IMG/VR virus record: IMGVR_UViG_3300028625_000001
Location: 32,001-96,000 of that record
Source: a virus
Reading direction: 5' to 3' (one strand)
DNA: 64,000 bases
Shown: one piece after another, positions 3,996 to 46,268 of the stretch
How positions within the stretch are numbered: position 1 is the first letter of the stretch
How the letters are laid out: each line of letters starts with the position of its first letter
Notes under the pieces: model-generated
The model's input: only the letters and a program-made list of their open reading frames with translations
The model's database searches: none
Told to the model about the DNA's origin: nothing
Position numbers and translations under genes: made by a program

Positions 3996-4295
3996 GGGGA
4001 TGACAAGGTTTCGACAGGGCTGTACAAGTATTGACCTCATGCCGTCGAGAGACGTAAAACCTAAACTAAGAACTGACAACCCATTACTTGAAAGAGCGGC
4101 TGCTTAGTCGCTCCCCGTCCGAAAATTTCCTACTCTTATATCGGGTTACGGGTCATAAAGAGTAGGGCTACGAGCCCCAAGTTTGTGTAGAAGTTCTTGT
4201 TAAAAACTTCTATTCGCCTCCAAGCATAGGAAAGCATGTAAAGGGTCGGCATGGAACAGTTTTGGACCCGGGTTCGACTCCCGGCATCTCCACCA
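3996..4295 (+). ncRNA. ssrA: tmRNA (SsrA)
   Basis: 5' end is GGGGATGACAAGGTTTCGACAGGG. 3' end is GGACCCGGGTTCGACTCCCGGCATCTCCACCA (T-arm, acceptor and CCA). A candidate internal tag reading frame ends ...CCATTACTTGAAAGAGCGGCTGCTTAG (..PLLERAAA-stop). Confidence 0.85.
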
Positions 4296-4443
4296 GCTCT
4301 TTTGCCAGTGCACACCAGTAGAACGGAAAGACCTTTTTCATCAAACCTCCTTTCAAGCGGGGTCATGGTTTAGGCGGGGTTCGATTCCCCGCGGCCCCGT
4401 CAGAGTTGGACAAACTCATTACTGGCATTTCGTTTGAAAGAAC

Positions 4444-4517
4444 TGAGAGATAGTGTAATGGAAACACACTTGATTTTGGCTCAAGTGATATAGGTTCGAA
4501 TCCTATTCTCTCAGCCA
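4444..4517 (+). tRNA. tRNA-Gln (anticodon TTG), CCA encoded
   Basis: Hand fold: acceptor TGAGAGA/TCTCTCA, anticodon stem CTTGA/TCAAG with loop TTTTGGC, T-arm ATAGG-TTCGAAT-CCTAT, then discriminator G and CCA. Confidence 0.8.
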
Positions 4518-6637: not shown

Positions 6638-6715
6638 GGGTAGTTTAGGTTAAATTGGCAAACCGCTTTGGCTCATAAGCCAGAGAAGCGCGGGTTCAAA
6701 TCCCGTAACTGCCCA
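6638..6715 (+). tRNA. tRNA-Met family (anticodon CAT)
   Basis: Acceptor GGGTAGT/ACTGCCC, CTCATAA anticodon loop motif and T-arm GCGGG-TTCAAAT-CCCGT. The anticodon stem can extend to 7 bp, which would leave a 6-nt loop (unusual). Confidence 0.75.
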
Positions 6716-6720
6716 CAGAC

Positions 6721-6956: not shown

Positions 6957-8378
6957 TTGATTGTAGAAGATTTAGTCGTTAAAGAATTATCCGTGGGCAA
7001 TTCATATTCAAAAGAAGGTGTCTTGGACAAAGACAGAGTTTTGACAGTTAGCAAGGTAAAAATCGGCGATAAGACTAGCAATGTTGAAACGATCGATGAG
7101 GAACGAAACGCTTATCTAAAGACCGTACACATTGGGACGCCGGAGTCTAGTATTGAGATCATTGACGAGGACGGCAACGTCCTTCAGAGGCTCCCGGTTG
7201 GCGCTCCGGCGATAGCCACCGCCGCTTCAACCGACTTAACAATCTCTGGTGGAGTATCTAACGGAGAACTAATCGTTATTGGCGACTCTATTATTGAAGT
7301 CAATGACACGACCGCCAGTGATGAAGGTTATGAGCTCCTTAATACTGCCGAAGGAACGAAGACACAGGCCAGCGGTGAAATTACCGTGAGTGCTGCCCCA
7401 GCACACCTCGATTATGTCCAGGTCGGGGAAGACATATACGTTATGGACCTTATTGGAGACGGAGTGAGCGCGGGGGCTATCCAGGTCGATCTTTCAGCTT
7501 TTTATGAAGCTTCAACTGCTACCCTCGCTTTTTCAGACGTAGTATCCGATGGGGAAGTTGTAGAAATCAACGGAGTTAGTTTTGAGTTTGATACCGACGG
7601 CGAGATCACCGAAGGAAATGTAAGAGTTTGGATTGGCGCAAACACCACTGCGGGCGCTGCAATTATTGCTCTCGCTTCAGTTATCAGAGGCAACACGGCT
7701 TGTGGCGTCAATGCAGTCGATGGTGACGGAGACACTTTGGTTGTTACAGCTAGAACATTAGGTACTGTCGGCGACGCCATTACTGTTTCTACCACCTGCG
7801 CGAACGCCTCCTGGGGCGTTGATGTAACCCATCTTGCAGATGGAGCCAGTGCAACTCCCGCAGAGACCATAGCGGCTATTGTGGCAGCTTCTGCCGGTGG
7901 AACGGAAGCCGTTACCATAACTGCCGGTGAAGGCGACGATGCAGGCAAATTACTTATTGCCGCAACTGCCGCTGGTGTTCTTGATGGATCTGCCGGTAAC
8001 TCATGTGTGCTTGCGGTTTCCGGGGCTGGATTTACAGCAAGCGCTTCTACTCTTGAGGGAGGCACCGACATGACGGCAGCCGAGGCTATAGCGGCCCTTG
8101 ACGGAGTAGAGCTCCCTGAAGCAACTCTTGAGGCTGGTGAAGGACTTGTGGCAGTTACAGCCAACGAAGCTGGAGTCGCGGGAAACGCGATTGAAGTCTC
8201 TACGACTATGGAAAATGCCGCCTTTGATGGTGAATACCTTGAGGGCGGCATTGACGGCGGGGAATATACGGAAGCCGATGCGAGAATTGCCAGATATGCC
8301 GACGGTTATCTATATATAGGCGAATGGGTAAACGGGGCAATGAAATGGTATGCCTGGCAGGGGACTGCCTTGAACTAA
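6957..8378 (+). CDS. Ala/Gly/Thr-rich repeat protein (possible virion decoration or fibre protein)
   Basis: Long ORF. TTG 6957 lies 7 nt after GGGGGAGGG, while the ORF-track start at 6924 has almost no RBS spacing. Internal repeats include VVTARTLGTVGDAITVSTTCANASWG and VAVTANEAGVAGNAIEVSTTMENAAFDG. GC is visibly higher than in the flanks. Confidence 0.6.
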   Translation: MIVEDLVVKELSVGNSYSKEGVLDKDRVLTVSKVKIGDKTSNVETIDEERNAYLKTVHIGTPESSIEIIDEDGNVLQRLPVGAPAIATAASTDLTISGGVSNGELIVIGDSIIEVNDTTASDEGYELLNTAEGTKTQASGEITVSAAPAHLDYVQVGEDIYVMDLIGDGVSAGAIQVDLSAFYEASTATLAFSDVVSDGEVVEINGVSFEFDTDGEITEGNVRVWIGANTTAGAAIIALASVIRGNTACGVNAVDGDGDTLVVTARTLGTVGDAITVSTTCANASWGVDVTHLADGASATPAETIAAIVAASAGGTEAVTITAGEGDDAGKLLIAATAAGVLDGSAGNSCVLAVSGAGFTASASTLEGGTDMTAAEAIAALDGVELPEATLEAGEGLVAVTANEAGVAGNAIEVSTTMENAAFDGEYLEGGIDGGEYTEADARIARYADGYLYIGEWVNGAMKWYAWQGTALN

Positions 8379-8390
8379 AGAGCAACGAGT

Positions 8391-8460
8391 AAGCGGGAAA
8401 GCTCATTGGAGAGCGCCCTAACAGATGGGGAGGTTGTGGGTCCGAATCCCGCCTCGCTTA
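8391..8460 (+). tRNA. tRNA-like gene, non-canonical (anticodon unresolved; CAG in the best hand fold)
   Basis: Acceptor AAGCGGG/CTCGCTT, D-arm GCTC-ATTGGA-GAGC and T-arm GTGGG-TCCGAAT-CCCGC. The anticodon stem has only 4 bp (CCCT/GGGG), and the loop AACAGAT has no U at position 33. Confidence 0.45.
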
Positions 8461-8483
8461 CTAGATTAGTTAGGGGGGAGAAC

Positions 8484-8609
8484 ATGATAAAGCGATTGAC
8501 TAATTGGTTCAAACGTCAGTGGAAGAAAGATATTGCGATAAACAGACAGCATACAGAAAGCATATATAACGCGTCGGACATTTTCGGAATCCCAGGAATA
8601 AGAGGTTAG
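8484..8609 (+). CDS. possible 41-aa basic peptide
   Basis: ATG 8484 lies 4 nt after AGGGGGGAG. Short, no homology inferable. Confidence 0.25.
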   Translation: MIKRLTNWFKRQWKKDIAINRQHTESIYNASDIFGIPGIRG

Positions 8610-8613
8610 GAGT

Positions 8614-8657
8614 AGGAGCGTAACTCAGTTGGTTAGAGTGCTGATCTGATACGTCAG
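8614..8657 (+). pseudogene. 5' portion of a tRNA-Ile (GAT)-like gene, lacking variable loop, T-arm and 3' acceptor
   Basis: AGGAGCG-TA-ACTC-AGTTGGTTA-GAGT-G-CTGAT-CTGATAC-GTCAG gives acceptor 5' strand, D-arm and a complete anticodon arm. No matching T-arm or CGCTCCT 3' acceptor was found on either side of the IscB element. Confidence 0.5.
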
Positions 8658-8897
8658 TCAACGACCCACGGCTAAAGCCGGGAGCTTGTAGCTCTTGTTG
8701 ACCAGCTTGAGTGTTTTGAGCACTACGTTACGGGTGAATACATAGGCACTCCGGGGTGACGCCACCAGCCCCGGACACTGCGGTGAATGATTAAACAGGT
8801 TGAGGGTCTAAACCAGTGTTGTTCACATTAAACCACTTGATAACATTGGCGAGGTGGACTTTACCGGCGTATGCCGAGAATTGAGAGGTAACTATCT
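8658..8897 (+). ncRNA. candidate IscB omega RNA (HEARO-like) scaffold
   Basis: A 240-nt non-coding, GC-rich region directly upstream of iscB with several hairpins (CGGC-TAAA-GCCG, GAGCT-TGT-AGCTC, CCGGGG-N12-CCCCGG). This position matches known IscB omega RNAs. No covariance model was run. Confidence 0.5.
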
Positions 8898-10151
8898 ATG
8901 CAACGTGTATTTGTAGTTGACAAAAACAGAGAGCCACTGATGCCGTGTCATCCAGCGCGGGCAAGGGAATTACTAAAAAATAGACGGGCAAAAGTGTTAC
9001 GCCGCTACCCGTTCACCATCATCCTGCTGGACCGTGAGGGTGGTGATGTACAACCAGTTGCATTGAAGATTGACCCGGGTAGCAAAACTACAGGGTTGGC
9101 GCTGGTCGCTGATGGCCAGCGTGGGAAACGCGTGGTATGGGCAGGCGAACTTAACCACCGTGGAGAACAGATAAAAGCAAGTATGCTGTCAAGAAAACAG
9201 TTGCGGCGTGCACGCAGATCACGTAAGACTCGCTACCGTCAGCCGCGTTTCGACAATCGCCGCCGGGCCGAGGGGTGGATACCGCCGTCGCTGCGAAGTC
9301 GCGTGGACAACGTGTTGACATGGACAGAACGATTGCGTAGGTTCACACCTATCTGCGCCGTGAGTATGGAGTTGGTGAAATTTGACACACAGGCTATGCA
9401 AAACCCGGAAATCAGTGGTATTGAGTATAAACAAGGCGAATTGATGGGATATGAAGTGCGTGAGTATTTGCTTGAAAAGTTTGGTCGAAGGTGTGCTTAT
9501 TGCGGAGCGACTGGCGCGCCACTAGAAATCGAACATATTATTCCAAAGTCTCGTGGTGGGTCAAATAGGGTAAGCAACCTAACACTGTCTTGTACCGTAT
9601 GTAATCAGCATAAAGGCAATCAGACGGCAACAGAGTTCGGACATCCAACAATTCAGGACAAAGCGAAGCAACCATTGAAAGATGCGGCGGTTATGAATAC
9701 AACACGTTGGACACTTTATCGCAGCTTAAAACAATTAGGCTTACCAATGGAAGTCGGTACTGGTGCACGGACTAAATACAATCGAGTACGACAGAATTAT
9801 CAGAAAGAACACTGGATTGACGCAGCCTGCGTGGGTGTAAGCGGAGAAAAAGTGTATATATCTTCTGGCACAATACCACTGGTTATTAAGGCTACCGGTC
9901 GCCAGTCACGTATCATGTGTCGCCCGGATAAGTACGGTTTCCCGCGCACGAAAGCTAAACAAGGCCGTGTTCACTACGGTTTCCAGACGGGCGACATCGT
10001 GCTGGCAACAATTCCTGAAGGTAAACATACCGGGGTACATATTGGACGTGTGGCAGTTCGTAACAGACCATCGTTTCGACTGAACGATTTTGATGTACAT
10101 CCAAAATACTTAAAAGTTTTGCATCATTCAGACGGCTACAGTTATCAGTGA
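8898..10151 (+). CDS. iscB: IscB, an RNA-guided RuvC/HNH nuclease (OMEGA system)
   Basis: PLMP domain (DKNREPLMPCHPARARELLKNRRAKV), RuvC-I (LKIDPGSKTTGLALV), Arg-rich bridge helix (RRARRSRKTRYRQPRFDNRRR), RuvC-II (VSMELVKFD), HNH with two CxxC pairs (CAYCG..LEIEHIIPKSRGGSNRVSNLTLSCTVCNQHKGN) and RuvC-III (EHWIDAACVG). At 417 aa it fits compact IscBs. Confidence 0.88.
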   Translation: MQRVFVVDKNREPLMPCHPARARELLKNRRAKVLRRYPFTIILLDREGGDVQPVALKIDPGSKTTGLALVADGQRGKRVVWAGELNHRGEQIKASMLSRKQLRRARRSRKTRYRQPRFDNRRRAEGWIPPSLRSRVDNVLTWTERLRRFTPICAVSMELVKFDTQAMQNPEISGIEYKQGELMGYEVREYLLEKFGRRCAYCGATGAPLEIEHIIPKSRGGSNRVSNLTLSCTVCNQHKGNQTATEFGHPTIQDKAKQPLKDAAVMNTTRWTLYRSLKQLGLPMEVGTGARTKYNRVRQNYQKEHWIDAACVGVSGEKVYISSGTIPLVIKATGRQSRIMCRPDKYGFPRTKAKQGRVHYGFQTGDIVLATIPEGKHTGVHIGRVAVRNRPSFRLNDFDVHPKYLKVLHHSDGYSYQ

Positions 10152-10209
10152 AAGGAGGGAGCGCCATTCCTCACCGCGCTAAAGCACGGTGTCCCCTGGC
10201 GCAATTTCT

Positions 10210-10476
10210 ATGGGAATAAAAGCAAAGACGTTGTGGGTGCACGTTAGGTCTTCAGGTTCATATCAGGCATTGTACATTAACGGAATTAAAGAAATCGAAG
10301 GCGAACAAATAGACATTGTTGAAGCTTTTGACCTCTTGGCCGAAAGAACGAATAACGAAGCCTATATCCTCGATTATACATACGAAGACATAGACGAGGA
10401 AGAAGATCCTTTTGATAATGCAGTAGATCGTGACTTCGATTTCCCGGAATCGCTTGACAAAAAGGACGTTATATAG
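10210..10476 (+). CDS. hypothetical acidic protein
   Basis: ORF with internal ATG 10210 (MGIKAKTLWV...) and a highly acidic C-terminus. The start is uncertain (ORF track gives 10189). Confidence 0.45.
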   Translation: MGIKAKTLWVHVRSSGSYQALYINGIKEIEGEQIDIVEAFDLLAERTNNEAYILDYTYEDIDEEEDPFDNAVDRDFDFPESLDKKDVI

Positions 10477-10560: not shown

Positions 10561-10689
10561 GGGCGCATGGCAAAATTGGCAGATGCTATCGTGACCGAAA
10601 GGTTAGGAGTCTCGTGAGTGAACACGTGAAAAAGCTCGCTAGAATGGGGATCTTGACCATTCGTACAGGTTCGAATCCTGTCGCGCCCA
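10561..10689 (+). tRNA. class-II (Leu-like) tRNA-like gene with an internal insertion of about 45 nt
   Basis: Acceptor GGGCGCA/CGCGCCC (A7-C66 mismatch), D-arm GCA-AAATTGGCAGA-TGC, variable arm GAATGG...CCATTC and T-arm ACAGG-TTCGAAT-CCTGT. Helix TATCG...CGCTA brackets hairpins GACC-GAAA-GGTT and CGTG-AGTGAA-CACG. Confidence 0.5.
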
Positions 10690-11004
10690 TTAGACCCCGG
10701 CAGGGTCATATTAAACCAGAGAGCAGTTAAGTCTTTCTGTACCAATAGCCGGGTGCAGTCTCTGTTGTAATCCGTTGGCCCGTTTCAGGTACAGAGACGA
10801 AGCAGAAGCGGGCATAAAATTAACCTCCATATCGGACCTTCCGATGGACGCATCGAGAACGGCTAACCGGTATGGCAGAATTGATCCCCACGTCCGCCCT
10901 GCATGTCGACGGGCAGTGATAGGTCAACGGGCGTGGTAGTTAATCCGCGGGACAGTACGCCGAGCCGCTGAAAGGGAAAGTCCTTATGTGACCGGAGTAC
11001 GAGC

Positions 11005-13262: not shown

Positions 13263-13354
13263 TTAGGTTCGTCGAAGAGGGGTAAGTTTCAATGAGAGCA
13301 ATCATGTTCTCAATGCGACTTACCCTCATTTTTTATCAACAGGAGGCTTTTAAA

Positions 13355-13813
13355 ATGGAAGTCTTTTATAGCAACAAGTTATTGACAATCGCCTTATCCA
13401 TAGTCTTTCTTCTATTGTGTGGAAACTTTTCATTATCAACCTACATGCTCAACGCTCCGCCTCTAGTTATTAGAGGGGATCTCTCTGGCGCGAAAGTCGC
13501 CTATGGCTCCGCTCCGGCAGCGTTTCAGTCTCTCTTTACTATTCATCTTAATGAGAAAGTCGGAAATTATACAACCATCAGGCATGAGTATCAACACTAT
13601 ATACAAAGTGCCCTATTAACTCCATTTGGTGCGGCGATAGGCTATCAATGGCAGCGATGCATATTGGGCAAAAGCTACAATGAGAACTGGTTTGAACTAG
13701 ACGCAGACCGGGCAAGAGAAGACGGCCTGATGTTTGATGTTTTTGTCTGGAACACTAAAGAACTTGTCACCATAATACCAGGACAATACTACTTCGATCT
13801 AGGGGTGGAATAA
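13355..13813 (+). CDS. membrane protein with HExxH motif (putative metalloprotease-like)
   Basis: ATG 13355 follows CAGGAGG. It has an N-terminal TM segment and a RHEYQHYIQSALLTPFG motif. Confidence 0.5.
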   Translation: MEVFYSNKLLTIALSIVFLLLCGNFSLSTYMLNAPPLVIRGDLSGAKVAYGSAPAAFQSLFTIHLNEKVGNYTTIRHEYQHYIQSALLTPFGAAIGYQWQRCILGKSYNENWFELDADRAREDGLMFDVFVWNTKELVTIIPGQYYFDLGVE

Positions 13814-14235
13814 TGGAAAATCTATACACAAACCCGTGGGTAACTATCCCCCTCACGATACTATACGCTTGCCTTGCGTTGAATTTTGCCGGGGCAATTT
13901 TTGCGTTGAACGCCGACCCGATATTGATCCCAATAGAAACCAAAAACCCTTCATTCACAGGAATAACGATAGCGCCTTTCATAATACTTAAAAACGAATG
14001 TTTGACATACACAGATTTAAGACGCGAATACCAGCATTATATGCAGCAATCGTTGTTGACGCCTTTAGGCTTCTTAGGATTCTATATTGGAGAATACTTA
14101 CTTGAGGGTAGTTTTGACAATGTATCTTTTGAACAAGAAGCCGTCAAGAAGGAAAACGATTCTCTTGAGTTTGAGGTGTTCAACATAAAGACTTTTAAGA
14201 AGATGAAAGTATATTCAGACATGGGGGGGGATTGA
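13813..14235 (+). CDS. paralog of the 13355-13813 protein, lacking the first His of HExxH
   Basis: N-terminal TM segment plus RREYQHYMQQSLLTPLG, the same motif block as the upstream gene. Confidence 0.5.
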   Translation: MENLYTNPWVTIPLTILYACLALNFAGAIFALNADPILIPIETKNPSFTGITIAPFIILKNECLTYTDLRREYQHYMQQSLLTPLGFLGFYIGEYLLEGSFDNVSFEQEAVKKENDSLEFEVFNIKTFKKMKVYSDMGGD

Positions 14236-15290: not shown

Positions 15291-18200
15291 ATGGAACCAC
15301 AAGACACCTATGATTATCTATTGACTATGGGCGTTGATGCCAAAAAAGTCTTTGAGACGTTTAACAAGATTGATGAGCGGGCCGATCAGATTGGACAGAA
15401 TATAGACTTGAAAGGTTTACAACGCCTCACCACAGAAATGACTAATGTCCAGAAACAGCTTACCACAATCATAACCGACTTCAATAGACTAGGTACAATT
15501 ACAGGGAAAGTTGCAGCGCCTATCAACACTAAAGGAATAGAAAACGCGAAACAACAAGTAAGTAGCCTCAGCGACGCGATAAACAAGGTGAATCAACAAG
15601 TCGGAGCCTCTATAGAAAGTCAGTCAAAACAGGTAGAACAAAAATTTACCAAGAGTCTTAGCGACTTTGTAAAGAAGAACAAGGAAATAAGCTCAAGTAT
15701 TCCCGCTACATATAAAGACGCTTTCGCCGCGTTATCCGCCGAGGTACAAAAAACGATCCCGAAGATCCAGGAAGAGATGCGAAAGCTCGTCGATATATGG
15801 GATCAGCAATCACCAGAAGTCAAAGGACAAACCCCCCTTAAGAGTCTTATCCCCTCTCAACAAATAGCCTTAGATATGGAAGACGGCAAAAAAGCTATCT
15901 TTGAAGTAACTTATCAGTATGACAGGCTCAAGGACGAAATGACCGCCGTTGTTAAAGCTTCTAATGATGTAGCAAAGTCTATGAAGGATATTCCCACAAT
16001 GAAAGTCTTTGGTCAGGCGGTCGAGCCAGTCGAAAAGGTAAAAACCTCGCTCGAAGAAACGGCAACGACCATCAAGACCAGATATGGAGAAGCTTTCCAA
16101 ACTTTCAATAGACACATCAACGAGTCTTTCCCTAAAGCGGAAGAGAGAATAAAAAAGTTTGCCGATGAATGGGCCAAAATGTCGGAGGAACAAAAAAGAC
16201 AAACCCCCTTAAGTAAGATAGCAGATCCTGACTATTTTGTCATCGAGCTTGAAGACGGCAAAAAAGCTCTTTATGAAATAAGTTATGCCTATGACGAAGT
16301 GAATAAACAAGTAGTAGCCAACGTAAAGGCACATAACGAGTTTGCGAAATCACTTGATGAGATCCCTAACAAAGTCAAGTTAAGCGGCCAGGCTATGGTC
16401 AACAACTTCAGCAATGCAACTGAAGTCACTAGAAAAACACAGAGCGCCTTTATGGACTTGGCGCGGGAGATAAAAGACTCCGTTCCGGTCATGAAAGAGC
16501 AAATGGAAAGTTATGTCCGTGAATGGGAGAAAGTTAGAGGTATTGACCAAGAATCGATTCCTCTTGACGCCATGAAAAAGACCAAGCAATTTGTAGTCGA
16601 TATAGGCAATGGGCAAAAAGCACTCTATGAAGCTACTTATACATTCAACAGAATGACCGGCGAAGTCTCTACCTCCGTGAAGGCGGTTAATGACTTTGCT
16701 AAAGCCTTCGATGGTATACCCGGGAAGTTTGATGTTGCGAAAAGGGCCGGTCGTGGCGTAGTCGATACTCTTAGAAATATTCAGACCGTAGGGCTCGCCG
16801 CGCAAAAGGTTTTTACCTGGTTGGTCGCTACAACCCTAATATATGGGACCATCAGATCCTTCCAGAAATACGTTTCTATGTTGTCGGAGATCGAGGAGAA
16901 GTTTATTACTCTCCAGAAAGTTACAAGCGATACCGGGACAGTCGAGAGATATTTTGAAACAGCAATGGTCCTTGCAGATGCTTACCGCATGAAGATTCAA
17001 GATACCCTCGATGTCATGACCGAGTTTGCACGGCAGGGTCTGAGAGGCGAAGAACTCTTATATGCCACTCAAGCCGGACTTTTAGCGACTCAGGCGACCC
17101 CTTTAAGCGCAGAAGAATCTACTAAAGCGCTTATCGCTATGTCAAAACAATTCAATATAGCGGCTGAGGATCTTGCTCAGACAGTTGACAAGATAACGAA
17201 CGTAGCCAACAACTTTGCAGTAGAAGCAAAAGACCTTACAGAAGGGCTTTCTATCGTGGGACAAGTAGCTTCTATAACCGGGGCTACGATAGATGACATG
17301 TCCGCAATCATTGCCACGGCGGGAACCGTGACTAAAAAAGCGGGAAACGAAATAGGTAATGCCTGGAAGGTGATAATAAGTAGGATTTATGGTAGCGAAC
17401 AATCCCAGAGAGAAATATCTAACCTTCTTGGTCTTCCTATGGTAGATATCGTTAATCAACCGTTGGTGGAGCTCCTGGCTCAAATGGCGGACAGATGGAA
17501 GACGGTAGACGAGTCTCAGAAAAACGCCGTTGCCAGCGCTATTGTCGGACGCAGAAGATATGCCGATCTTGTGGCGGTCCTTGAGAATTTTGATCTCGTG
17601 GTCGATGCGGCCGCAACCTCTATCTCTTCTTTTGGTGCCGCAGAAAGGGCCGTCTCCTTACAGTTTGACAGCTTTAAGAGTGCGGTTCAGGAATTAAAGA
17701 ATACTGCTTATAACCTGACCAGGACTTTTGGAGACGAACTACTCAATGCCCTGGCGGGAGCGATAGACCCGGAAAGGATCGGGGCATTGATTACAGCGAC
17801 AGTAGCTCCCACGGTCATAAACGCTTTCTATAAGATATTCACAAAAACCGCTTTCCTTTCAAAGGGTTGGCTTGGCTTAGTCACCGCGGCTATTGCTGGG
17901 ATAGGTTTCGCAATAGTCTCTCATCTTGAAAAGGTAGAACAACTTAGGCGGCACTACACGAGGCTAGACAATGAAGTAGATACCCTTACAAAAGGATATA
18001 AAGACTTACAAGTTCAGCTTAGTAAAATAGATTCTTCGACAAAAGATGCAGCTTTTGAACAACAGAAATTACAGCTCGCTTTGACCAAGACTAAAGACAG
18101 GATAAGAGAACTCATTCCTTTTGTCACCAAGATAAGTGAGATCGATGGCAAGTTGTCTTTTGACATTGACGAAGAGTCTTATATGTATGCGCAGGAATTG

Positions 18201-21200
18201 TTGGACAAGCTACCAAAAGAGAAGAATATAAAACTCTTGCTTGAGTTCGACCCCGACAATATCAAGGCTGTCCAAGAAGCGCTTTCCGGCTCTCTTCAAG
18301 ACCTACTGGACCAGAAGATAAAAGAGTCAGGGTTTGGCGGCTTAATCAATACAATAACCGGCAAAACGGGGACTTCTTCTGCTTTATTAGCCTTGTTGCA
18401 GAAAGACTTTTATACACAAAGCCTAAAGAGTCCAATGGAGACATATAGGGAAATATTCAGACATCTCTATGGTGTTTCCAATGAAGGTGCATTTTACGAG
18501 TCTCAATTGGCAATCACCGAGATTTTAGGTAAGCGGATGGAAGGGTTAACGAACCTAATCGAAGAGCTTGACCGGTATGAGGCTATCTATAACGAGATTC
18601 TTAGTTTACCAGAGGAAAGAAGAAGTTCCGCAGGGAAGGAGTTCGTGTCCATCTTCGACTCTCTTGACCTCAAAAACGTGAAAAGAGAGTATATGTTACT
18701 TTTCGAAGGTTATAGAAGCTATATAGAACTCTTCCAAGAATATACAAAAGAAATAGAAGGAATGGCCTTCTCGGATTATATTGATGCTAATTTTGATATC
18801 TCTAACCTAGACTTCGACAATGCAGAAAAACTTATAGAAGCCTTACAGGGAGAAAACACAGAAAGGTCCTTGAAGCAGATTCTTATTTTAAGTGCTGCAA
18901 TTGGACAGGCCACAAAGAGGATAGAGGGGTTGGGGAACGAGCTCCAGGATGTCGAAATTCCCCAGGATGATCTTGATGCGCTTATAAAGTCTTTCAATAT
19001 CCAGGAGCAAACAAATGTCCTCGGAGATATAGGAGAGGATATCGAGATCGGTGTTGGTGCAATCAACAAGATTTACTCCGACGTTATGAAGACGATTCTC
19101 TCTCTCGATTCATTCAAAGCGCTTGAACAAATTAAGAACTTACAATCTCAGTTCGCGGCGTATCATATGGTCGAGAAAAGTAGCGTTGTTTATGCTCTTG
19201 ATGACTATTTTCAGACCTTCAAAGACTTGCAGCCACTGGAACAAGTTCTATCAACCACGTTTGGTAAGACTTCGTGGAAAGGGATGTTAGCCAGACTAAA
19301 TCTCCTTGAGAGTACGAAAGAGGAGAGTCTAGCCCCGGAAATAATAGGGATCTATAAACCCTTCTTAGAGGATATGGTAGCAATTCAAGAACTTGCTCTT
19401 GAATACATAACCAATGAGCTTAACTCTCTTAAGGAAATTGAGGATGCAACTTTTGCCACGACAGAAGAGGCAATTAACTATCTCTTCAAGACTAATTTTG
19501 GAGCCAATTGGGAAGACATAGCCCAGCTTGCTATAGGGCAGCCCGGGGTCAGAGGGGACAAACTTGTTTCTCAGCTAGGAATACTTGTCGGACAGGTAAA
19601 GTCGGCGAAACCGGAGGAACTAGACATAGAATCTCTCTATAAAGACATTATCGGAAACCTCGATATGCTTTCTTCTGAAGAGTTCGCAATAGTTCAGAAC
19701 ATGATCCTTGCCGGTGATAGAAGTGTTGACTGGATAAAGAAGTATTCCGACATAATCAATAAGAGAGAGGATACGCTTTCTGAGGCGGAATCGGTCATAA
19801 GACGTCAACTTGACGAGATGAAGCTTTCTATGCCAGACACTCAGGTACGCGATCTCCGTTGGTCCGGGGCGTATTCCCCAGACAAAGAAATAGAGATCGT
19901 TACTAAATACATAAGTCAAGTCTCCGCACTTGTTGCTGCTCAGACTAAGGCTTTAGGCATAGAAGACCCATTAATAATAGAAAAGTTGCAGGACGCCTTC
20001 GATATCGGCGCCGGGAGTTCTTTTATTGAACGTCTTGGTGATTTAGAGCTTCAGATAAAGGAGAATACCGAACAGTTTCTTAGCCAATACCAGAGCGTTC
20101 TTGACGGAGTAACTTTCCCAATAGAGCTGGCGGCAGAAATGCAATCAGACCTGACTAAAAAAGCCGCGGTCATAAGGAATAAGACCAGACATGTTTTTAC
20201 CACAGTCCCAGAGGTCTTGAAGACCTATGTAGATCGATTGATAAATCTCATAGGGTCAAGAGACATGGTATATATCGAGAACGAACTAAACGATATACAG
20301 ACCAGCCTTAAGGAGATCGACCCGACAAGTCTTACTGAACAAGATCTTGATAAACTGTCCGAACTGATGGGATATGTCAATTCATGGTCATCTACCATAG
20401 TAGATGCAATCTATGGAAACGTAGGTTCTACTCAGAAAGAATTAACCAACACCATAAATCTTCTAAGACAGAACCAGAACGAACCCATCTTAGAAGAACA
20501 ATACCAGAATCTATTCGACGCGATCCTTGAAATGTATGATAATATCCTTTCTAATGCCGAATCGATGGAGGATAACCTGGCGATAATCGGGAAAAATACG
20601 CTACGGACAACGATTATCTCCACTATCGAACAGGCAAAAAAAGAGGTTGAAGCGATTGCCAAGCAAGGGACGGGCGCCGATCTCAATAAACTCCAATCCC
20701 TCCTTGATCTATCCTCTGTCCTACAGGCTAGAATTGATAGCTACAATGAACTCTCGGCTAGTATAGAAGCCGGGATTAGCATGTATGACAAGAACGAAAC
20801 CATACAATTGATAGTGAATGGTATGGAGGAGATTTTTGAGCGCGGGGAGAAGAGGCTTGCCGAGTCTCTAACAATCAGGGTAGAAGACATATACGCAATA
20901 ATGAGTTCCTTGATAAGCGGAGATACCGCCGGACTAGCTTTCAGCGAAGATGTGTCTGGACTCATAGCCTCTCTTAATGCCGATCAGAGAAAAGCTGTGT
21001 ACGATAGATTCAATAGAGAGGTTCAAAAAACCAGATTTGGCGCTCAACAGAACATCGAAGCTCTCTTAAACCAGACACAGTACGGTCAGTTTACCGACCA
21101 GATAACCAGCATAGAGAATCTCTTGGGCCTAAACCGTGAACTTGGCGGGACTGGACTCGCAAAGCTTATACAGACCTCTTTAGATCAATTATACGGTGAT

Positions 21201-24200
21201 ATATATGCTTCGATAATAGGGGTTGTAGCTTCTGTGGATTCAGATATCCAATCTTATATAGACTCCGGTTTTGCGGCGGAATATCTTCCCGATCTGACTC
21301 TTCTTAAAAACAGACTTATTTCCTTTTTGGAAACACCTATAACTACTCTTGAAGAGGCAAAAGAGGCGGCAGTAGAGTTAGAAAAGTTTACAGATGAGTT
21401 TGACAGGATCTCGACCGCAACAGCTTCAAGAAGAACCGAAGCACAAAGAGAGGCAGAAAGAATATTAGAGTCGATTGACACAATTATAGGCTCGGATAAT
21501 GAGTCGATTGAAGTATATAGACGTGCTTTGCAAGAGATGCGAACTCTCGATATAACCGATCCATTTGTCAAAAGCCTACTTTCAAAAGAACTCGCTCAAA
21601 GAGAGAAAGAGTACAACGCGGCTATAGCAGATTACTTTGTTATGAATACCGATAACACAGTCTCCAGAGTCATAGAGGAAATAGAGATATATTCAAGAGC
21701 CGAAAGAGGACAGAGAGAGTACGACTATATCGACGACCAGGTAATCGGCTTGAAGGATAATCTAACCTCTCTCCGCGAGACTATAAATGAAGCTTTACAG
21801 TATGGCATCTCTGCCCCTGAAACAATTAGAAAGCTGGATGAATACATTTCGGGGCTAGATTCTATAACTAAAGAGAACCTTCTTGACCAGGGAGTCGAAA
21901 TCCTTGCGAGGTTAGACCTAGAATTAAAGTTTATAACTGATACGTCCAGAGAGGTTAGAGAAGAACAAACTCGCTTCTTGGGGCAATACGAGGGGTATTT
22001 TGACCGTTTCTCCGAACTCTCCCTTGATACGGTTGAAAACATTCGCAAGTACCGTGAGGTATATGAGCAAGCAAGGGCTGAAATCGATACTTCAATCCCC
22101 TTTCTTGCCGAAGGGATGAGGAATGTCGAGGAGAATATTCTATCGGCTTACGAACCACAACTAGACCTCATTAAGAGTCTAGCCGACCTTCATTTCGATT
22201 ACTGGCTTATGGGCTATGGTGGTCCCGAATACGACAAGATCAAAGAGTATATAAAGCAGCTTGAAGCCATGCCTGCACAGGCGACGGCTCCCGGAGAGGT
22301 TTTTACCTACCTCGAAGACATCTTGACCATAAGAGAGTCTGTGGATCTCTGGACTGACGAGTTTAACTCTCTTTCCAACGAATATACCAAGCAGTTCAGA
22401 GACTATCAGAAGAGGTTTGATGAAGTGAGCTCGATGACCTCGATCTATGAGCAAGCCCGTGCAGCGGGACAGCTCAGGGACGAATTAAAGGCTCAAATGC
22501 AGATCCTTCAGACAAAAGAAGTCTCTGCCTATAGCACATATGCTATAAACAATCTGACTGAAATGTTCAATTCCCTTACTGAAATAGTCGATGACTACGG
22601 TACTCAGTTTAAGATGGACTACCTCGGTTCCTTCAAACAAATGGTGATAGAAAGGACCGACACTTCTCAATTCAGGGAACGAATGATCGATCAATCACTT
22701 GATTGGTTGAGCACTCTTTATGGCTATCGTCAGCAATTGACAGAGGCAATGCCGTGGGGATGGGAAGACAGAGGAGGACTACTCTCTTTAATCGATGAGG
22801 CTGTCGCCGCTTTAAGAGGAGAAATTACAGGGACCGATTTCCTTGAAGAAGGAGACTTAAACAATCTCGAAGCCATCATAGCTAAAATGAAGCAAGCGCT
22901 AGTAGATTTGTCTGAGGTCCAGAACGACTTTACTCAAAGATTCGGTTTGACTATAGAACAAATTGGAGAAATATCGCTCAACACCGCAATCTCTCTCCAG
23001 GACTACAACGATAGGCTCATTCAGTTGAAGGCGGATATATCTGAGCATTACGAGGGACAGATCCCGCAAAACGTATTAGAAATCATAGAAGGGCTTGAAA
23101 AGAGTTATGTCAATGCTAAGACCTCTCTTATAGAATCGATTAAGAAGGACGCGGAAAATCTAGCCCTTGGAGAATATTCAAGTATCCTCCTTTCTCTTTC
23201 CGCTGTGGTTGGCGATAACAGGTTGCCCGGGGCGGAAGACGCCCAAGCCATGATAGAAGGATCTTTAACCAAAGAATTGAAGTCTATGTTTAAGAGTAAT
23301 ATCTATCAAATGAGGACCGATCTTATATCCAGAAGAAGATGGTTGACGACCCAACCGAACGCAGGCAAAGACATCGAGACTATCGATGCACTCCTCTCTG
23401 ATTTAGCTTCTATCAATTTTGCAGAAGCTACAGACTTGGCCTCTTTAACTAACGTAGCCAAAAGAGTGGTGGTACTTTCTTCAAACATCAAAGACCTTCT
23501 CGATGGTTACGATAGGATTGAGGAAGAGATTGAGTCTAACACTATTCTTCAGGATCTCCAGGCTGAATTGGAAACGATAAAAGGAGAGAAGGATGTAATA
23601 GTCCAATACCAATTAGCTCAAAAATTCAAAGGAAAGTTGGCCGCGGCAAGCCTCTTCGCCAGCAACATTATCGGGGGTATAATGGGAGACCTCATAGCCC
23701 AACAGATAAATATGTGGCTTAGAGAACTCACCGACATGACTAATATAGACATAAGAGACTCCGAAATAGTCAACATTATCGATATGATAAGGCAAGTCCA
23801 GACTGGATATCCTCATTCACAATCGATGGTTCGAACAACACTTAGAGATTATGTGCTCGGTCTTAGCAGTAATGTATCTATGATAAATGAAGCTGCCAGC
23901 TATGGAATCGGCGGGACTGAACAAGTCTTGTTAGGGATAGAAGAGATAGCGAGGTTGATAGATCAGGCGATAAGCGATCCCAGCTCAGTTAGCCTGACTG
24001 ATCTTGAAAACAAGATCGAAGAAGTCAAAGAACGTATAGACAATATAAAGACCTTCTCTGAAGATGCCCAAAGAAAGTTCTCTTCAAAATACGGATTCGC
24101 AGTAGAGGAGCTTCAACAGAGGGATGTGTCTGACTTAACTGCCGCTTTAGACTTCTTAAATGATTATGTCGAGTTAAGAGACTTGATACTAAGCGATGCG

Positions 24201-29400: not shown

Positions 29401-29501
29401 ACCTTGATGATTATGTAGCGTCGGTAGTCCTGGCAACGCGAGAAAACTTCAGCGGGGAGTCGATAACGTTCAATTTTGATTTTGGCGTTTTGATTGAATA
29501 A
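26403..29501 (+). CDS. large tail or baseplate-hub-like protein (1032 aa)
   Basis: Lies between the tape measure and the fibre. No catalytic motif recognised. Confidence 0.55.
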   Translation: MTYIGTQNFFNLKYKVEVYDGASWVEVRLGTGTLDRDVDYISSTLTLQGIDGAYWYRNSDPILGADDEPLLKAGRRIRVMRIWGKTNPISEQRFVGYIGTPKYDAKTRKVSVEAYCDLYWVLRSEVVFDTINRNNSTKRVVSFNGAYDETKTLLYSETTNWYDFAGPTGGLIRPRIQLTIPSAYSTKPYILGRLSNIKLEIKNPGPFLNDQVNIEMTTFLYVNGDEDARVAEVKTTINKSAKPNDVIEISLGDISFALTSYPSQIHLGADFELLEGCAIFTSLIPGLGNILAGCLYRYSYDLFITGYETTDDIITVDKTVVGDGIVLTIQDSSGSPKTIDESMFVGVKILSPFINPKTKDWFTTEELTDEQPTPTGLISEKEVLPGDQGFVLGALKGQIILPSTTIPNHIRDYVVYQKEWLLSDIIKNAIITAYLIDSNYSLQELLTDLLTRSGASNLSLTSTYPTLVKVGSYSIAKRTKFEDILRELKGGVLPRSYVLYSDTSGQVKDDVYSVSSASLRQFSRAKNRTPAERSPDELVTAYQITVGKVDSLEILKNKSYYVGLDSDNESFLKSVNNYGDSLFEKDLGGETTLYAFLQPDVIPRYIDLQFEYIQNDDPVEVSSQVFVALWEDLMDLSGPLSFSDLPWKNVGGQGSNTYLGSGLSTIDISGMISRPVAAIKIVLDIKGTVAFKRWFLYEDTETKHVELSPYPQNVPVKVAKYVWNGDEEPTGDDVSNIAATGYIDPIPGSTTYKLIATKHFLYSPSLSRFEIDTDRPVVGTSNKNILLPYEGLAVSNEKYMAAPFADNCNRNEAQYGLACGIFKARGEGLPRATISQIDVWRVGHMADQEQYTFPTKGDLSGTPKGVLIFTNESSDDSGIDHDIIYIESANMTYTAKKISFTLPTMVHILLVSSNLPGVLDKKVNAIAAFNYTSSQIPYISRDLGRNDAFLVDDGIMRYLMTYAAFDTITFNKESCPVTVPIDDSGNIVDFLDRVDIYDPDLDDYVASVVLATRENFSGESITFNFDFGVLIE

Positions 29502-29514
29502 GGGGGGATGGGTA

Positions 29515-32500
29515 ATGAACACCCTTGATAAATATGTTCAAAAACATATAGTGAAATACAGTGGCGCAGGCCCGATAAGTAAAGGCGGCGGGGCTTCTTC
29601 TAATCTATCTATGAGTCTTGACACTGCCGCACTCGCGGGCAGGATAGACGATATTGAAGAACAACTCAAGCTGATTGCCGCATCTCTTAAGAATTATCAT
29701 ACGCTTTCAATTACTTTCGAGAATATAGACCTCCCACTGGTAGATATACATGTCAGCGGAGGAATGGCGGTCTTAAGTGGCTATACAGAAGTTATACCTG
29801 AGACTACGATAACCGTAGACACTTCTTTGTGGGTTGCAGGAGTCAACAAGTATATCGTTTGGTATAACGGGACGATCGTTGTTGCCGATGAAATACTTGA
29901 GGGATATAAGTTACTTGCCTACATAATAATTCCCGAAGATTGGGACGGAACGGTAAGTAATTCATATAAAGACGGCGCGGCTTATATTTCTATTGCCGGA
30001 CCGATAGATGAACTCGATCCCTATTATGGAGAGGTACTGATCCTTGAGCTCGATGCGGAGGCCGGTCCTTTCTTCTGTATTGTCCATGCTTCGTGGGACC
30101 CCCTTGGATCTCCCGATGTTTCTCACTATATCCTTTCTTATACAATAGACGGGAATAACTGGGAGAATATAAGCACGGCGAACCCCGCGGCAAGCTTCGA
30201 GGCCCCGCACAACATCCAAGTCGCAGCCAAGGTCCAGGCCGTGTTCAATAATGGAAGAAAAACTCATTGGTCGGCGACAGAAATTATTCAGACCCCCGGC
30301 GACGACACCATTCCCCTGCCTGTAACAGGTCTTGAGGTCACAAGTCAGTTTGGAATAATTAAAGCTATCTGGGATGAGAGTACAGATATAGACTTTGATA
30401 CGTTTGAAATACAGGTAGCTAGAGACGATCAATTCACAGACCCGGAAGTCACTTTTACCACAAACACCAGCTATGCCTTTGCGGGAGAACCGGAAGCTAC
30501 TTACTATATAAGGGTAAGAGTTATAGACTACTCTAGCAATACTTCTTTGTGGTCTGACACTATAGAGATTGAAACGGTTATGGGCGACGGGAATACTCCC
30601 GCGGCCCCCACTGGGCTAACCCTCGTCCCAATTCTTGAAGACGAGACTTCATACATAACTGCTACGTGGGATAGGAACGAAGAATTAGATATAGTCAGTT
30701 ATGAATTAGCTATCAGCTATGACCAGACTAATTGGGTAGACTACCAGACGCCAAAAACAACCAAGACCATAGAAGTAGTCGGCGGAGTCACCCTTTACGC
30801 AAAAGTAAGGGCTTTAGACAATGAGGGGTTAGTCTCTGCATGGTCCGATATTGTAGAAACAACCACAGCACATGACACTGAAGCGCCTAATATTCCAGTA
30901 GGATTAACTATTACCAATAGTTTTGGTATAGTGTACTTTACCTGGACTGCCAATGGAGAAGCCGACTTTAGTCATTATATAATTCAGATATCTCAAACCG
31001 ATCAATTCTCTACCTATGACGAGGTTATCCAAAGGACAAATAGCTATAGTTTCTCAGGAATCCCGGGGACAACTTATTATGTAAGAATTAAGTCTGTGGA
31101 TTACTCCGGGAATGAGTCAGACTGGTCTTCAATCGCAAGCACGACGGTAACAGCCGGAGACGGGCAGCCGCCCGCGACCCCCACGGGGCTTAGTCTGACA
31201 ACCTATCTTCAATCTTATAGCAGCTATATAGAAGCGACATGGGATGAGAACGAAGAGGTAGACTTACTCGGTTATCAAATAGCCTGGTCGCTCGACCAGT
31301 TGAAATGGAATATACTGTCTGTCAATTCTCCAGAAGCAAATTTTTCTGTCCCGGGCAACAGCACAATCTATGTTAAGGTCAAAGCGCTTGATGTCGAAGG
31401 GTTGGCCTCTCAATGGAGCGACGCAGAAAGCATAACCAGCACAGAGGACGAAGAAGCCCCGGCAACCCCCGTTCTCTTATCAAACATTCCCCTTTACGCT
31501 AGGGCGTTGATAGAGATAGAAGAGCAGGAAGAGTCAGACTTTAGTCACTTTCTTGTCTCTTATAAAGATAGGAGCTTTACGACTTCTACAACCAACATCG
31601 AGATTCCCCTAGACCCTGGAGAATCAGGGGTGTCCGTCTCTATTAAAGCCGTCGATCTTAGCGGAAACGAGTCCCCGGCACTCGCGGTGTCCGCCTCCGC
31701 CAGAACATTGTCGGAAGCTGAAGAAGAGTTCTTTGAACTAATCAACAAGGTTCATGGAGGATCTACCAATACAGAGACTATAGCCTATATAACCGACGAT
31801 CTGGTAGACCATATGAACATCACAAAGCCGACGGCTTTTGATCGCTCCGGGCTACTTAAAGACGATGTATACGACACTATCGACAGGATAGACAACATAG
31901 ATTATGGAGATTTAACCCTCCCGATGGAAAGCGTCTTTGAGAGAATCGATACCGATTTTATAAGTGTCGGCAGCTCACTATTCGAGGCCCGCTCAAAGAT
32001 ATTCGATATAGAGATCGGTGGAGAAATAAAGAATATAGACGAGTGGGTCGGAGTAATAAACACCGACGTTTCAGATATTACAACCAGGATAGACTTCATA
32101 AACTATGGCGAACTGACAGGGACAATAGAAACCGTTCTCGGTTCCGTTTATTCGAATGTCTCCGCTATATCCGAGAAAATCTACGACATAGTTATCGGAG
32201 AAATAACTCTTGATATAGATGAATGGATAGACCAGATCAATAGTGATCTATCGGGAGTTATGACAAGAATAAATGCGGTAGTCTATGGCTCTCTTACCGA
32301 CACTATTGAAGATGTCCTCGCCGCCGTGCATGGAGATATATCAGGGATAGAGACAAAGGTTTTCGACATTGAGATCGGCGAAGTAACTCACGACATAGAT
32401 GAGTGGATGGGGTTGCTTAACGGAGACGTCGCGGGAATTATCAGCCGCCTTGAGAATGTGTCATATAACGAAACCATAGACACGATCGAGACGCAGATCG

Positions 32501-44471: not shown

Positions 44472-44689
44472 CTTATAAAATTACAGACTTAGAAGACGGA
44501 AGAATAGAAATTGAAATAAGTTTTTTAGACGAGGATATTGATCTTGTTGGTAAAACGACAATTATTGGCGAAGAAAATGATGCCGAAAAATACCTTCCGT
44601 TTTTTGAAAAGGATCTAAGAGTCAATTACTCTTATTTATTTCCAACTCCAGAGCCAGAGCTGATATTAGAAGAAGGTGATTTTATATGA
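44468..44689 (+). CDS. hypothetical acidic protein
   Basis: 73-aa ORF with ATGA overlaps on both sides. Confidence 0.5.
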   Translation: MTYKITDLEDGRIEIEISFLDEDIDLVGKTTIIGEENDAEKYLPFFEKDLRVNYSYLFPTPEPELILEEGDFI

Positions 44690-45861: not shown

Positions 45862-45937
45862 TCTGTGCTTTGCGCTCTGTAATCTGCAAAAAAACCAAAG
45901 GGGGAGGAGCAGCATAGAACTCAAGATATTACAAAAG

Positions 45938-46246: not shown

Positions 46247-46268
46247 AGATATGGGAGAGACCCATTTA

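What the first reader, a model, noticed from the sequence alone, without database searches (positions are those of the whole stretch)
8658..10202. IscB plus a putative omega RNA (OMEGA RNA-guided nuclease) inside a phage tRNA island
The 417-aa ORF carries every IscB hallmark in the right order: PLMP domain, RuvC-I D, Arg-rich bridge helix, RuvC-II E, an HNH with two CxxC pairs, and RuvC-III H/D. All catalytic residues appear intact. It is preceded by 240 nt of GC-rich, hairpin-dense non-coding sequence, where IscB omega RNAs are encoded. No TnpA lies in the window. The block is visibly GC-richer than the surrounding phage DNA, so it looks like a mobile insertion. An apparently active RNA-guided nuclease carried by a large virulent-type phage, embedded among its tRNAs, is unusual. 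It could act in element retention (homing), inter-phage competition or host-genome attack.
Basis: partly seen in the sequence, partly recalled or inferred. Interest (0 to 1): 0.85.

Follow-up and report, generated by a model that had tools for sequence, protein, structure and literature searches.

The report
Mobile IscB guide-RNA nuclease in phage
A small jumping-gene cassette encoding the Cas9 ancestor IscB and its guide RNA sits in a phage's tRNA cluster, has cut a tRNA-Ile gene in half, and sits at different sites in sister phages, so it is an ordinary kind of element caught actively spreading in a rare setting.

Summary
ORF 8898-10151 is a full-length IscB: Pfam RRXRR at E 3e-74 plus HNH. 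D59, E158, H213, H305 and D308 align with the residues I recall as the OgeuIscB catalytic set. The 208 nt upstream (8657-8864) hit Rfam HEARO, the IscB omega RNA, over the whole model at 134 bits against a threshold of 83.

Comparison with a sister phage that is 96-98% identical (L007) fixes the element at 8657-10209, 1,553 bp. L007 has an intact tRNA-Ile(GAT) at this site and carries its own IscB element about 3 kb downstream. At that second place the window holds the clean empty site.

I found nine independent insertion sites of this element lineage, all on phage-like or unassigned metagenome contigs. Eight are followed by ATGG and one by ATGA, and this is often the next gene's start codon. 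There is no target duplication, a hairpin lies near the end, and no TnpA was found. This is a non-autonomous IS200/IS605-family OMEGA element.

In the window the insertion came with loss of 151 bp, including the 3' part of tRNA-Ile. The predicted guide is therefore the tRNA-Ile anticodon arm.

IscB homologues occur in 31 of 50,697 GenBank phage records, so this is a new member of a known kind. RNA-guided cutting and homing between phages are inferred, not shown.

The parts
8614..8657 (+). 5' part (positions 1-43) of a truncated tRNA-Ile(GAT): acceptor AGGAGCG, D arm, and anticodon stem-loop CTGAT-CTGATAC-GTCAG. The 3' part is missing.
   Evidence: Read from the sequence. Weak Rfam tRNA hit at 8614-8690, 21.7 bits. 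The orthologous intact tRNA-Ile(GAT) lies at L007 4416-4493 (ARAGORN; Rfam 68 bits). The acceptor complement CGCTCCT is absent from the + strand of the window.
8641..8656 (+). Predicted 16-nt guide of the omega RNA, CTGATCTGATACGTCA, taken from the flanking tRNA-Ile anticodon arm.
   Evidence: It lies immediately 5' of HEARO model position 1. The upstream sequence differs between element copies, while the scaffold is shared from GTCAAC onward. The 16-nt length is my recollection for OgeuIscB-type guides, not a measurement. There is no second match in the window.
8657..8897 (+). Omega RNA scaffold (HEARO). The Rfam model covers 8657-8864. The rest runs to the iscB start codon and contains its Shine-Dalgarno sequence (GAGAGG).
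   Evidence: Rfam RF02033 at 134 bits, E 1.3e-27, full length. In 8 copies, 26 of 59 predicted pairs keep pairing through changes on both sides.
8657..10209 (+). The whole non-autonomous IS200/IS605-family IscB (OMEGA) element, 1,553 bp.
   Evidence: blastn against sister phage L007: homology breaks at 8658 and resumes at 10210. The same ends (GTCAAC... and ...GCGCAATTTCT) occur in copies at eight other sites.
8898..10151 (+). iscB gene, 417 aa: PLMP, RuvC-I, bridge helix, RuvC-II, HNH, RuvC-III and a C-terminal domain.
   Evidence: Pfam RRXRR plus HNH. Alignment to solved IscB structures. dN/dS of 0.06-0.19 against other copies.
10161..10202 (-). Imperfect hairpin near the element end that lies downstream of iscB. 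In the transposase's frame of reference this is the left end.
   Evidence: DNA fold of the reverse strand of 10150-10213: 6 bp, a 5x5 internal loop, then 8 bp; -14.7 kcal/mol, z = -3.2. Conserved in the other copies.
10210..10213 (+). ATGG, the conserved 3' flank of the element. It is the candidate target-adjacent motif (CCAT on the transposase strand). Here it is also the start codon of the 88-aa gene (10210-10476).
   Evidence: Eight of nine independent sites are followed by ATGG and one by ATGA. Meers et al. place the TAM at the end opposite the HEARO.
13339..13358 (+). Empty site for the L007-type element, ACAGGAGGCTTTTAAA|ATGG. It matches the L007 copy's predicted guide exactly and is followed by ATGG. 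It lies between the Shine-Dalgarno sequence and the start codon of the gene beginning at 13355.
   Evidence: window 13354|13355 is contiguous where L007 carries 7757-9313. There is no target-site duplication.
13813..13816 (+). Second empty ATGG site. A third sister phage (L126) carries the element immediately 5' of this start codon.
   Evidence: L126 1-1556 is the element and L126 1557 onward matches window 13813 onward at 94%. Window sequence.

Best explanation
Window 8657-10209 is a 1,553-bp non-autonomous IS200/IS605-family OMEGA element. It carries an omega RNA (HEARO) followed by an intact iscB gene, and it lies in the tRNA cluster of a tailed phage.

Shown here:
- The protein and the RNA belong to the IscB and HEARO families.
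- The element has precise ends and makes no target duplication.
- It lies immediately 5' of ATGG or ATGA at nine independent sites.
- Sister phages that are 94-98% identical carry it at different sites and hold each other's empty sites.
- iscB is under purifying selection.
- In this phage the tRNA-Ile(GAT) gene is cut after position 43, and 151 bp present in the sister phage are missing. These comprise the tRNA 3' part, a spacer and the Shine-Dalgarno sequence of the next gene.

Inferred from published work on the family:
- The RNA is transcribed with the upstream flank as its guide, here about 16 nt of the tRNA-Ile anticodon arm.
- IscB bound to this RNA cuts double-stranded DNA that matches the guide and is followed by the ATGG motif.
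- That DNA is the joint left if the element is excised, or the unoccupied allele of a co-infecting relative.
- Recombinational repair from an occupied genome then restores or copies the element (retention or homing).
- Moves to new sites need a Y1 transposase (TnpA) supplied in trans.

Origin of the deletion (inferred). In the intact tRNA the left junction is followed by GTGG, one base from the motif. The 151-bp loss is therefore best explained in one of two ways. The transposase may have joined the element end to this near-cognate site. Alternatively, two copies inserted at GTGG and at ATGG, 151 bp apart, may have recombined.
For: Identity: Pfam RRXRR at E 3e-74 plus HNH. HEARO at 134 bits over the full model. 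Five residues align with the OgeuIscB catalytic set as I recall it. HEARO pairs covary, 26 of 59. dN/dS is 0.06-0.19.

Mobility and ends: the blastn map against L007 and the junction sequences. L007 has an intact tRNA-Ile at the orthologous place. Nine sites all carry the ATG[G/A] flank. Subfamily-B copies that are 98.3-98.9% identical sit at four different sites. The end hairpin has z = -3.2.

Phage context: tape measure, NrdD, DnaB and exonuclease.

Not an assembly artefact: the exact protein lies in the same context on 11 contigs from several samples.
Against: No cleavage, RNA or transposition data exist for this element. The guide length and the ATGG motif are inferred from flanks.

No promoter-like site lies on the + strand between 8300 and 8657, so expression of the RNA would depend on read-through.

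No transposase was found in the window, in 10 kb to its left, or in any related locus, so the source of mobility is unknown.

In the intact tRNA-Ile allele the guide match is followed by GTGG, not ATGG. Homing into that allele may therefore fail.

The GTGG coincidence has a chance probability of about 1 in 64, which is suggestive only.
Confidence: 0.85

Rival explanations
1. The copy has been co-opted as a weapon against other phages. The 151-bp deletion retargeted the guide to the tRNA-Ile(GAT) anticodon arm, which many phages share. The nuclease would then cut the tRNA-Ile genes of competing phages during co-infection, acting as exclusion rather than selfish retention.
For: The 16-nt guide matches the intact tRNA-Ile of sister phage L007 exactly. 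It also matches about 15 tRNA-Ile(GAT) genes of unrelated IMG/VR phage contigs. Three of those, and L007, are followed by GTGG. T4 SegB, as cited in a 2026 review, is a precedent for a phage nuclease that cuts a tRNA gene region to bias inheritance.
Against: All nine natural flanks are ATG[G/A], while the tRNA targets carry GTGG, GAGG or GCGG. The element keeps intact transposon ends and belongs to a lineage that is still moving. The guide content is simply what insertion into a tRNA gene would produce.
Confidence: 0.1
2. The element is a stranded, functionally dead relic. It was immobilised by the adjacent deletion and is merely carried along by the phage.
For: No transposase is nearby. The flank was rearranged. 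No promoter was detected.
Against: The residues that align with the recalled OgeuIscB catalytic set are intact. dN/dS is 0.11 against its closest relative L124 and about 0.07 against subfamily B. The HEARO match is full length. Both element ends are intact and match those of mobile copies. The excision joint...ACGTCA|ATGG, would still be a perfect guide-plus-motif target.
Confidence: 0.05
3. It is a free-standing protein-guided HNH homing endonuclease, as GenBank annotates its phage homologues, and the upstream RNA-like region is incidental.
For: Phage homologues are annotated 'HNH endonuclease'. JGI labels relatives 'McrA'.
Against: The RRXRR/RuvC profile matches over its full length. Solved IscB structures are the best matches. 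The HEARO hit is 51 bits above threshold and the pairs covary.
Confidence: 0.01

Closest known systems
IscB-omega RNA elements of the IS200/IS605 family (OgeuIscB; the G. stearothermophilus IscB element in Meers et al., bioRxiv 10.1101/2023.03.14.532601)
   Same: Same protein architecture. HEARO omega RNA upstream on the same strand, with the guide taken from the flank. Conserved motif on the opposite flank. Hairpin near the end and no target duplication. Usually no tnpA nearby.
   Different: It resides in phage genomes, and the 84-97% lineage was seen only on phage-like or unassigned metagenome contigs. The inferred motif is ATGG, which often coincides with a start codon, whereas Meers et al. 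report an AT-rich TAM. The protein is shorter (417 aa against 496), and the region after residue 316 does not align with OgeuIscB.
Free-standing homing endonucleases of T4-like phages, especially SegB in the T4 tRNA gene region (NAR 2008, PMC2330249, cited in PMC13565253)
   Same: A nuclease gene embedded in a phage tRNA cluster, expected to cut the allele of a co-infecting relative and be copied in by repair.
   Different: SegB recognises DNA through protein contacts. Here the target is specified by an RNA plus a short motif, and the cassette is also a transposon with defined ends.
tnpB-carrying IS in cyanophage A-1(L) (bioRxiv 10.64898/2026.02.14.705889) and the IS gene drive in plasmids (bioRxiv 10.1101/2025.02.20.638934)
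   Same: An OMEGA-type RNA-guided nuclease element carried on a multicopy mobile replicon and present or absent among close relatives.
   Different: Those elements carry TnpB (the Cas12 ancestor), not IscB. The A-1(L) copy is identical to host copies. Here the best match among 185,579 species-representative genomes is only 69% identical.
IscB homologues in GenBank phages (uncultured 484-kb phage LR756508, Microcoleus phage My-WqHQDG, Ralstonia phages Adzire and Heva, Nodularia phage vB_NspS-kac68v162, Clostridium phage c-st)
   Same: IscB-like ORFs in phage genomes, full length and 48-52% identical for the best 15 records.
   Different: They are distant, at most 52% identical. They are annotated only as HNH endonuclease or hypothetical protein. 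I did not check them for HEARO, element ends or empty sites.

Membership tests
IscB (OMEGA RNA-guided nuclease) | N-terminal PLMP domain and a RuvC fold split by an arginine-rich bridge helix (Pfam RRXRR) | tested here: met
   PF14239 at E 3e-74, residues 4-180 over profile positions 1-174 of 174. PLMP lies at residues 13-16.
IscB (OMEGA RNA-guided nuclease) | HNH domain inserted in the RuvC fold, with both active sites intact | tested here: met
   PF01844 at E 1.9e-13. D59, E158, H213, H305 and D308 align with D61, E193, H247, H340 and D343 of OgeuIscB 7xht. That these five are the catalytic residues is my recollection, not checked in a paper.
IscB (OMEGA RNA-guided nuclease) | Cognate omega RNA (HEARO) encoded directly upstream on the same strand | tested here: met
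   RF02033 at 134 bits against a gathering score of 83, 8657-8864, ending 33 nt before the ATG. Covariation in 26 of 59 pairs.
IscB (OMEGA RNA-guided nuclease) | RNA-guided, motif-dependent cleavage of double-stranded DNA | not testable with these tools
   This needs a TAM-library or interference assay. Only the candidate guide (8641-8656) and motif (ATGG) can be read from the flanks.
IS200/IS605 transposon | Insertion without target-site duplication and without terminal inverted repeats | tested here: met
   The empty site in the window (...TTTTAAA|ATGG...) against the filled site in L007 shows no duplicated bases. The ends GTCAAC... and ...AATTTCT are not inverted repeats.
IS200/IS605 transposon | Insertion next to a fixed short target motif at one end only | tested here: met
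   The ATG[G/A] flank occurs at 9 of 9 independent sites, which is CCAT 5' of the left end on the transposase strand. The opposite flank is not conserved.
IS200/IS605 transposon | Imperfect hairpins near the ends | tested here: met
   Hairpin at 10161-10202, -14.7 kcal/mol, z = -3.2. The other end is the hairpin-rich 5' part of HEARO.
IS200/IS605 transposon | Y1 (HUH) transposase TnpA encoded in the element | tested here: not met
   No PF01797 match among 20 small window ORFs or in the gene tables of the related loci. The element is therefore a non-autonomous member, as are most iscB elements (about 1.5% lie near tnpA).
CRISPR-Cas9 | Adjacent CRISPR array, tracrRNA and adaptation genes | tested here: not met
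   No repeat array anywhere in the window. The protein is 417 aa and lacks a REC lobe. Cas9 proteins are only distant matches.

The most novel reading that the evidence does not exclude
A lineage of IscB elements has adapted to living in phage genomes and acts as an RNA-guided gene drive and exclusion system among co-infecting relatives. In this phage a transposase-mediated adjacent deletion reprogrammed the guide to the conserved anticodon arm of phage tRNA-Ile(GAT) genes. The nuclease can then cut not only its sister phages but a broad range of unrelated tRNA-carrying competitor phages.
Probability: 0.12. Interest if true: 0.8.

Novelty: new member of a known kind. Interest (0 to 1): 0.48.

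Why it matters
IscB elements are known as bacterial transposon cargo and as genome-editing tools. Their natural behaviour has been studied mostly in bacterial chromosomes.

Here a set of near-identical phages carries the same element lineage at different sites, and each genome holds the perfect unoccupied target of another's guide. That is the population structure expected if RNA-guided cutting drives homing between co-infecting phages. A 2026 review mentions such non-restorative homing only as a theoretical possibility.

The case therefore offers a natural system in which to test that idea. It also offers a compact 417-aa IscB with a simple inferred ATGG motif for enzymology. Finally, it shows how such an element can destroy a phage tRNA gene and sit exactly between a ribosome-binding site and a start codon.

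Tried and rejected
1. Nucleotide searches of the element and of 20 kb of the window against GenBank phages found nothing. IMG/VR scans for the tRNA-plus-guide 26-mer and for the element-end pattern also found nothing.

2. I looked for the missing tRNA-Ile 3' half in the window. There is no + strand CGCTCCT and no T-arm-plus-acceptor pattern that fits. I concluded it is deleted, which L007 confirmed.

3. I considered a simple insertion into the tRNA. This is rejected because 151 bp of the sister sequence are absent.

4. I considered that the AAGGAGG after the iscB stop codon, the end hairpin and a 7-nt spacer form a split ribosome-binding site for the downstream gene. The RNA fold does not differ from shuffled sequence (z = -0.8) and pairs the motif weakly. 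The idea is left unsupported.

5. I considered self-targeting. There is no second guide match in the window.

6. I looked for a CRISPR association. There is no array.

7. A look-up of the DnaB-like protein at the right end of the window, meant to extend the TnpA search, found no record.

8. I tried to infer the host from cellular relatives. The best is a 69% match in an Anaerolineaceae MAG, which is too distant to name a host.

Full report
WHAT IS THERE

The ORF 8898-10151 (+) encodes 417 aa. It matches Pfam RRXRR (the IscB PLMP, RuvC and bridge-helix region) at E 3e-74 over the whole 174-position profile. It also matches HNH at E 1.9e-13.

Among solved structures the best matches are all IscB proteins: TbaIscB 9k30, HfmIscB 9k2z and OgeuIscB 7xht/7utn. 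In the residue-by-residue alignment to OgeuIscB, D59, E158, H213, H305 and D308 fall on D61, E193, H247, H340 and D343. I recall those five as the OgeuIscB catalytic residues; I did not check this in a paper.

Immediately upstream, 8657-8864 matches Rfam HEARO (RF02033), the RNA now known as the IscB omega RNA. The score is 134 bits against a gathering score of 83, with E 1.3e-27, over model positions 1-211 of 211. In an alignment of eight copies, 26 of 59 predicted pairs keep pairing through changes on both sides.

CONTEXT

The window is phage DNA. The 3,538-aa ORF carries a tape-measure domain. PHROG matches include NrdD, a DnaB-like helicase and an exonuclease.

The region from 4 to 12.5 kb holds a tmRNA and several tRNAs. 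The exact IscB protein lies in the same context on 11 contigs from several samples, so this is not an assembly artefact.

ENDS AND MOBILITY

A sister phage, L007 (a 113-kb ENA contig), is collinear with the window at 96-98% identity. blastn gives the following map:
- window 4197-8658 matches L007 1-4461
- window 10210-13354 matches L007 4613-7756
- window 13354-16000 matches L007 9313-11957
- window 8656-10213 matches L007 7756-9317 at only 84%

L007 thus lacks the element at the window's site and carries a diverged copy about 3 kb downstream. At that place the window has the clean empty site...ACAGGAGGCTTTTAAA|ATGGAAGTC. There is no duplication, and the site lies exactly between a Shine-Dalgarno sequence and a start codon.

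Alignments of copies from other contigs show a shared sequence from GTCAACGACCC... to ...GGCGCAATTTC[T/A], with unrelated flanks. This puts the window element at 8657-10209, 1,553 bp.

INSERTION SITES

Look-ups of close homologues and one metagenome scan gave nine independent sites. Eight are followed by ATGG and one by ATGA. The opposite flank is not conserved.

In five cases the ATG is the start codon of the next gene. This was read from the gene tables, and for L007 from the homologous window gene.

Copies form two subfamilies:
- A: the window and L124, 95% identical.
- B: L007, L011, L126 and L127, 98.3-98.9% identical to one another at four different sites, plus L020 and L013.

Subfamilies A and B are about 84% identical, whereas the two phage backbones are about 97% identical. 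The window and L007 therefore acquired their elements independently.

dN/dS for iscB is 0.06-0.19. The end downstream of iscB folds, on the opposite strand, into an imperfect hairpin 7 nt from the CCAT motif (-14.7 kcal/mol, z = -3.2).

No Y1 transposase was found in the window, in 10 kb to its left, or in any related locus (and the gene tables).

These are the defining features of a non-autonomous IS200/IS605 element. [quoted passage not shown] They also report that TnpA and IscB read the same motif, that the excision joint is the nuclease's target, and that only about 1.5% of iscB genes lie near tnpA. On the iscB strand this geometry is guide | scaffold ... iscB ... | TAM, which is exactly what is seen here with ATGG as the motif.

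THE tRNA

Bases 8614-8657 are positions 1-43 of a tRNA-Ile(GAT). L007 has the intact gene at 4416-4493.

In the window, the 151 bp that follow position 43 in L007 are missing. These comprise the variable loop, T arm and acceptor 3' strand, a spacer, and the Shine-Dalgarno sequence of the 88-aa gene. The element's other end abuts the ATGG start codon of that gene, as at a canonical site.

The predicted 16-nt guide (8641-8656, CTGATCTGATACGTCA) is therefore the anticodon arm. The 16-nt length is my recollection for OgeuIscB-type guides.

In the intact gene this sequence is followed by GTGG, one base from the motif. The chance of NTGG at a given position is 1 in 64. On the transposase strand this reads ...CCCAC|TGACGTATCAG. 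Joining the element's right end to the DNA just after this near-cognate site would give exactly the observed junction. Recombination between copies inserted at GTGG and at ATGG would give the same result. This is inference.

If the element were excised, the joint ACGTCA|ATGG would be a perfect target for its own guide. The retention mechanism is therefore still coherent.

LIKELY FUNCTION

Retention after excision follows from the family's published mechanism.

Homing between co-infecting relatives is suggested by three facts:
- The window holds an exact match to the L007 copy's guide followed by ATGG (13339-13358).
- The window holds the ATGG site used in L126 (13813).
- L007 holds an exact match to the window's guide, though followed by GTGG.

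The 16-mer also occurs in about 15 tRNA-Ile(GAT) genes of unrelated IMG/VR phages, followed by GAGG, GCGG or GTGG. This permits, but does not show, a broader anti-competitor role. T4 SegB is the protein-guided analogue.

I found no evidence for attack on the host genome.

NOVELTY

A tblastn search of 50,697 GenBank phage records finds IscB homologues in 31, at up to 52% identity. They are annotated as HNH endonuclease or hypothetical protein. A tnpB element in a cyanophage and an IS gene drive in plasmids have also been described. IscB in a phage is therefore rare and under-recognised, but not new in kind.

The 84-97% lineage was found only on metagenome contigs, whose flanking genes, where fetched, are phage-like. 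The best match among 185,579 species-representative genomes is 69% identical, in an Anaerolineaceae MAG. IMG/VR holds one relative at 67%.

What is new is the documented filled-and-empty polymorphism among sister phages, the ATGG motif that coincides with start codons, and the truncated tRNA that serves as the guide.

VERDICT

This is a new member of a known kind. Interest is moderate (0.48).

Noticed in passing
window 44686-47609: A diversity-generating retroelement. A 391-aa phrog_2889 protein carries a 116-nt variable repeat at its 3' end (45734-45849). A bAvd accessory protein lies at 45704-46243. The template repeat at 46268-46383 is 92% identical to the variable repeat. An RVT_1 reverse transcriptase lies at 46539-47609.
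   Followed up: partly
window 10561-10689: A tRNA-like gene of 129 nt. It reaches the Rfam tRNA threshold (29.3 bits) only by allowing an internal insertion of about 58 nt. It has a good T arm and acceptor (GGTTCGAATCC...GCGCCCA), and ARAGORN does not call it. It may be an intron-containing or degenerate tRNA.
   Followed up: no
window 10690-11004: A GC-rich non-coding stretch of 315 nt between the tRNA-like gene and tRNA-Gly, conserved in L007. The predicted fold is -110.7 kcal/mol, z = -2.7. It has no Rfam match at E of 1 or below. It may be an undescribed structured RNA.
   Followed up: partly
window 6638-6716 (L007 2443-2521): ARAGORN calls a tRNA with a four-base anticodon: CATA here and CACA in the sister phage. 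Rfam tRNA scores are 41-44 bits. An eight-membered anticodon loop could mean a frameshift-suppressor-like tRNA or a mis-call.
   Followed up: no
window 3996-4295: A phage-encoded tmRNA (Rfam 108.9 bits; tag peptide VKPKLRTDNPLLERAAA). A weak permuted-tmRNA-like hit follows at 4258-4381.
   Followed up: no
window 15291-25907 and 29494-43059: Two giant ORFs of 3,538 aa (tape-measure domain PF10145) and 4,521 aa. These are unusually long for tail-associated proteins.
   Followed up: no
L016 5791-6003: A second, stand-alone HEARO (156 bits) with no iscB after it. It is followed by an end-like sequence (GTGAAAGGAGGGAGGCGGCTTCC) and then by bacterial-looking genes (DegV, CitMHS, ABC transporter). 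It could be a protein-less mini-element or a chimeric assembly at a repeat.
   Followed up: no
L127 5715-7270 and 11639-13087: One phage-like contig carries two iscB genes about 4 kb apart. One is a subfamily-B element and the other a distinct 482-aa RRXRR/HNH protein.
   Followed up: no
window 8392-8459 (L007 4197-4264): A weak tRNA-like gene just upstream of the tRNA-Ile, scoring 28.3 bits here and 36.7 bits in L007. ARAGORN does not call it.
   Followed up: no
loci L025-L094 (3' flanks of more distant iscB genes): Many iscB genes at 55-75% identity from other metagenomes also have a ...TATG[A/G] 30-60 nt after the stop codon. The ATG-type flank may therefore be shared by a much wider IscB clade. 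Ends were not defined for these copies.
   Followed up: partly
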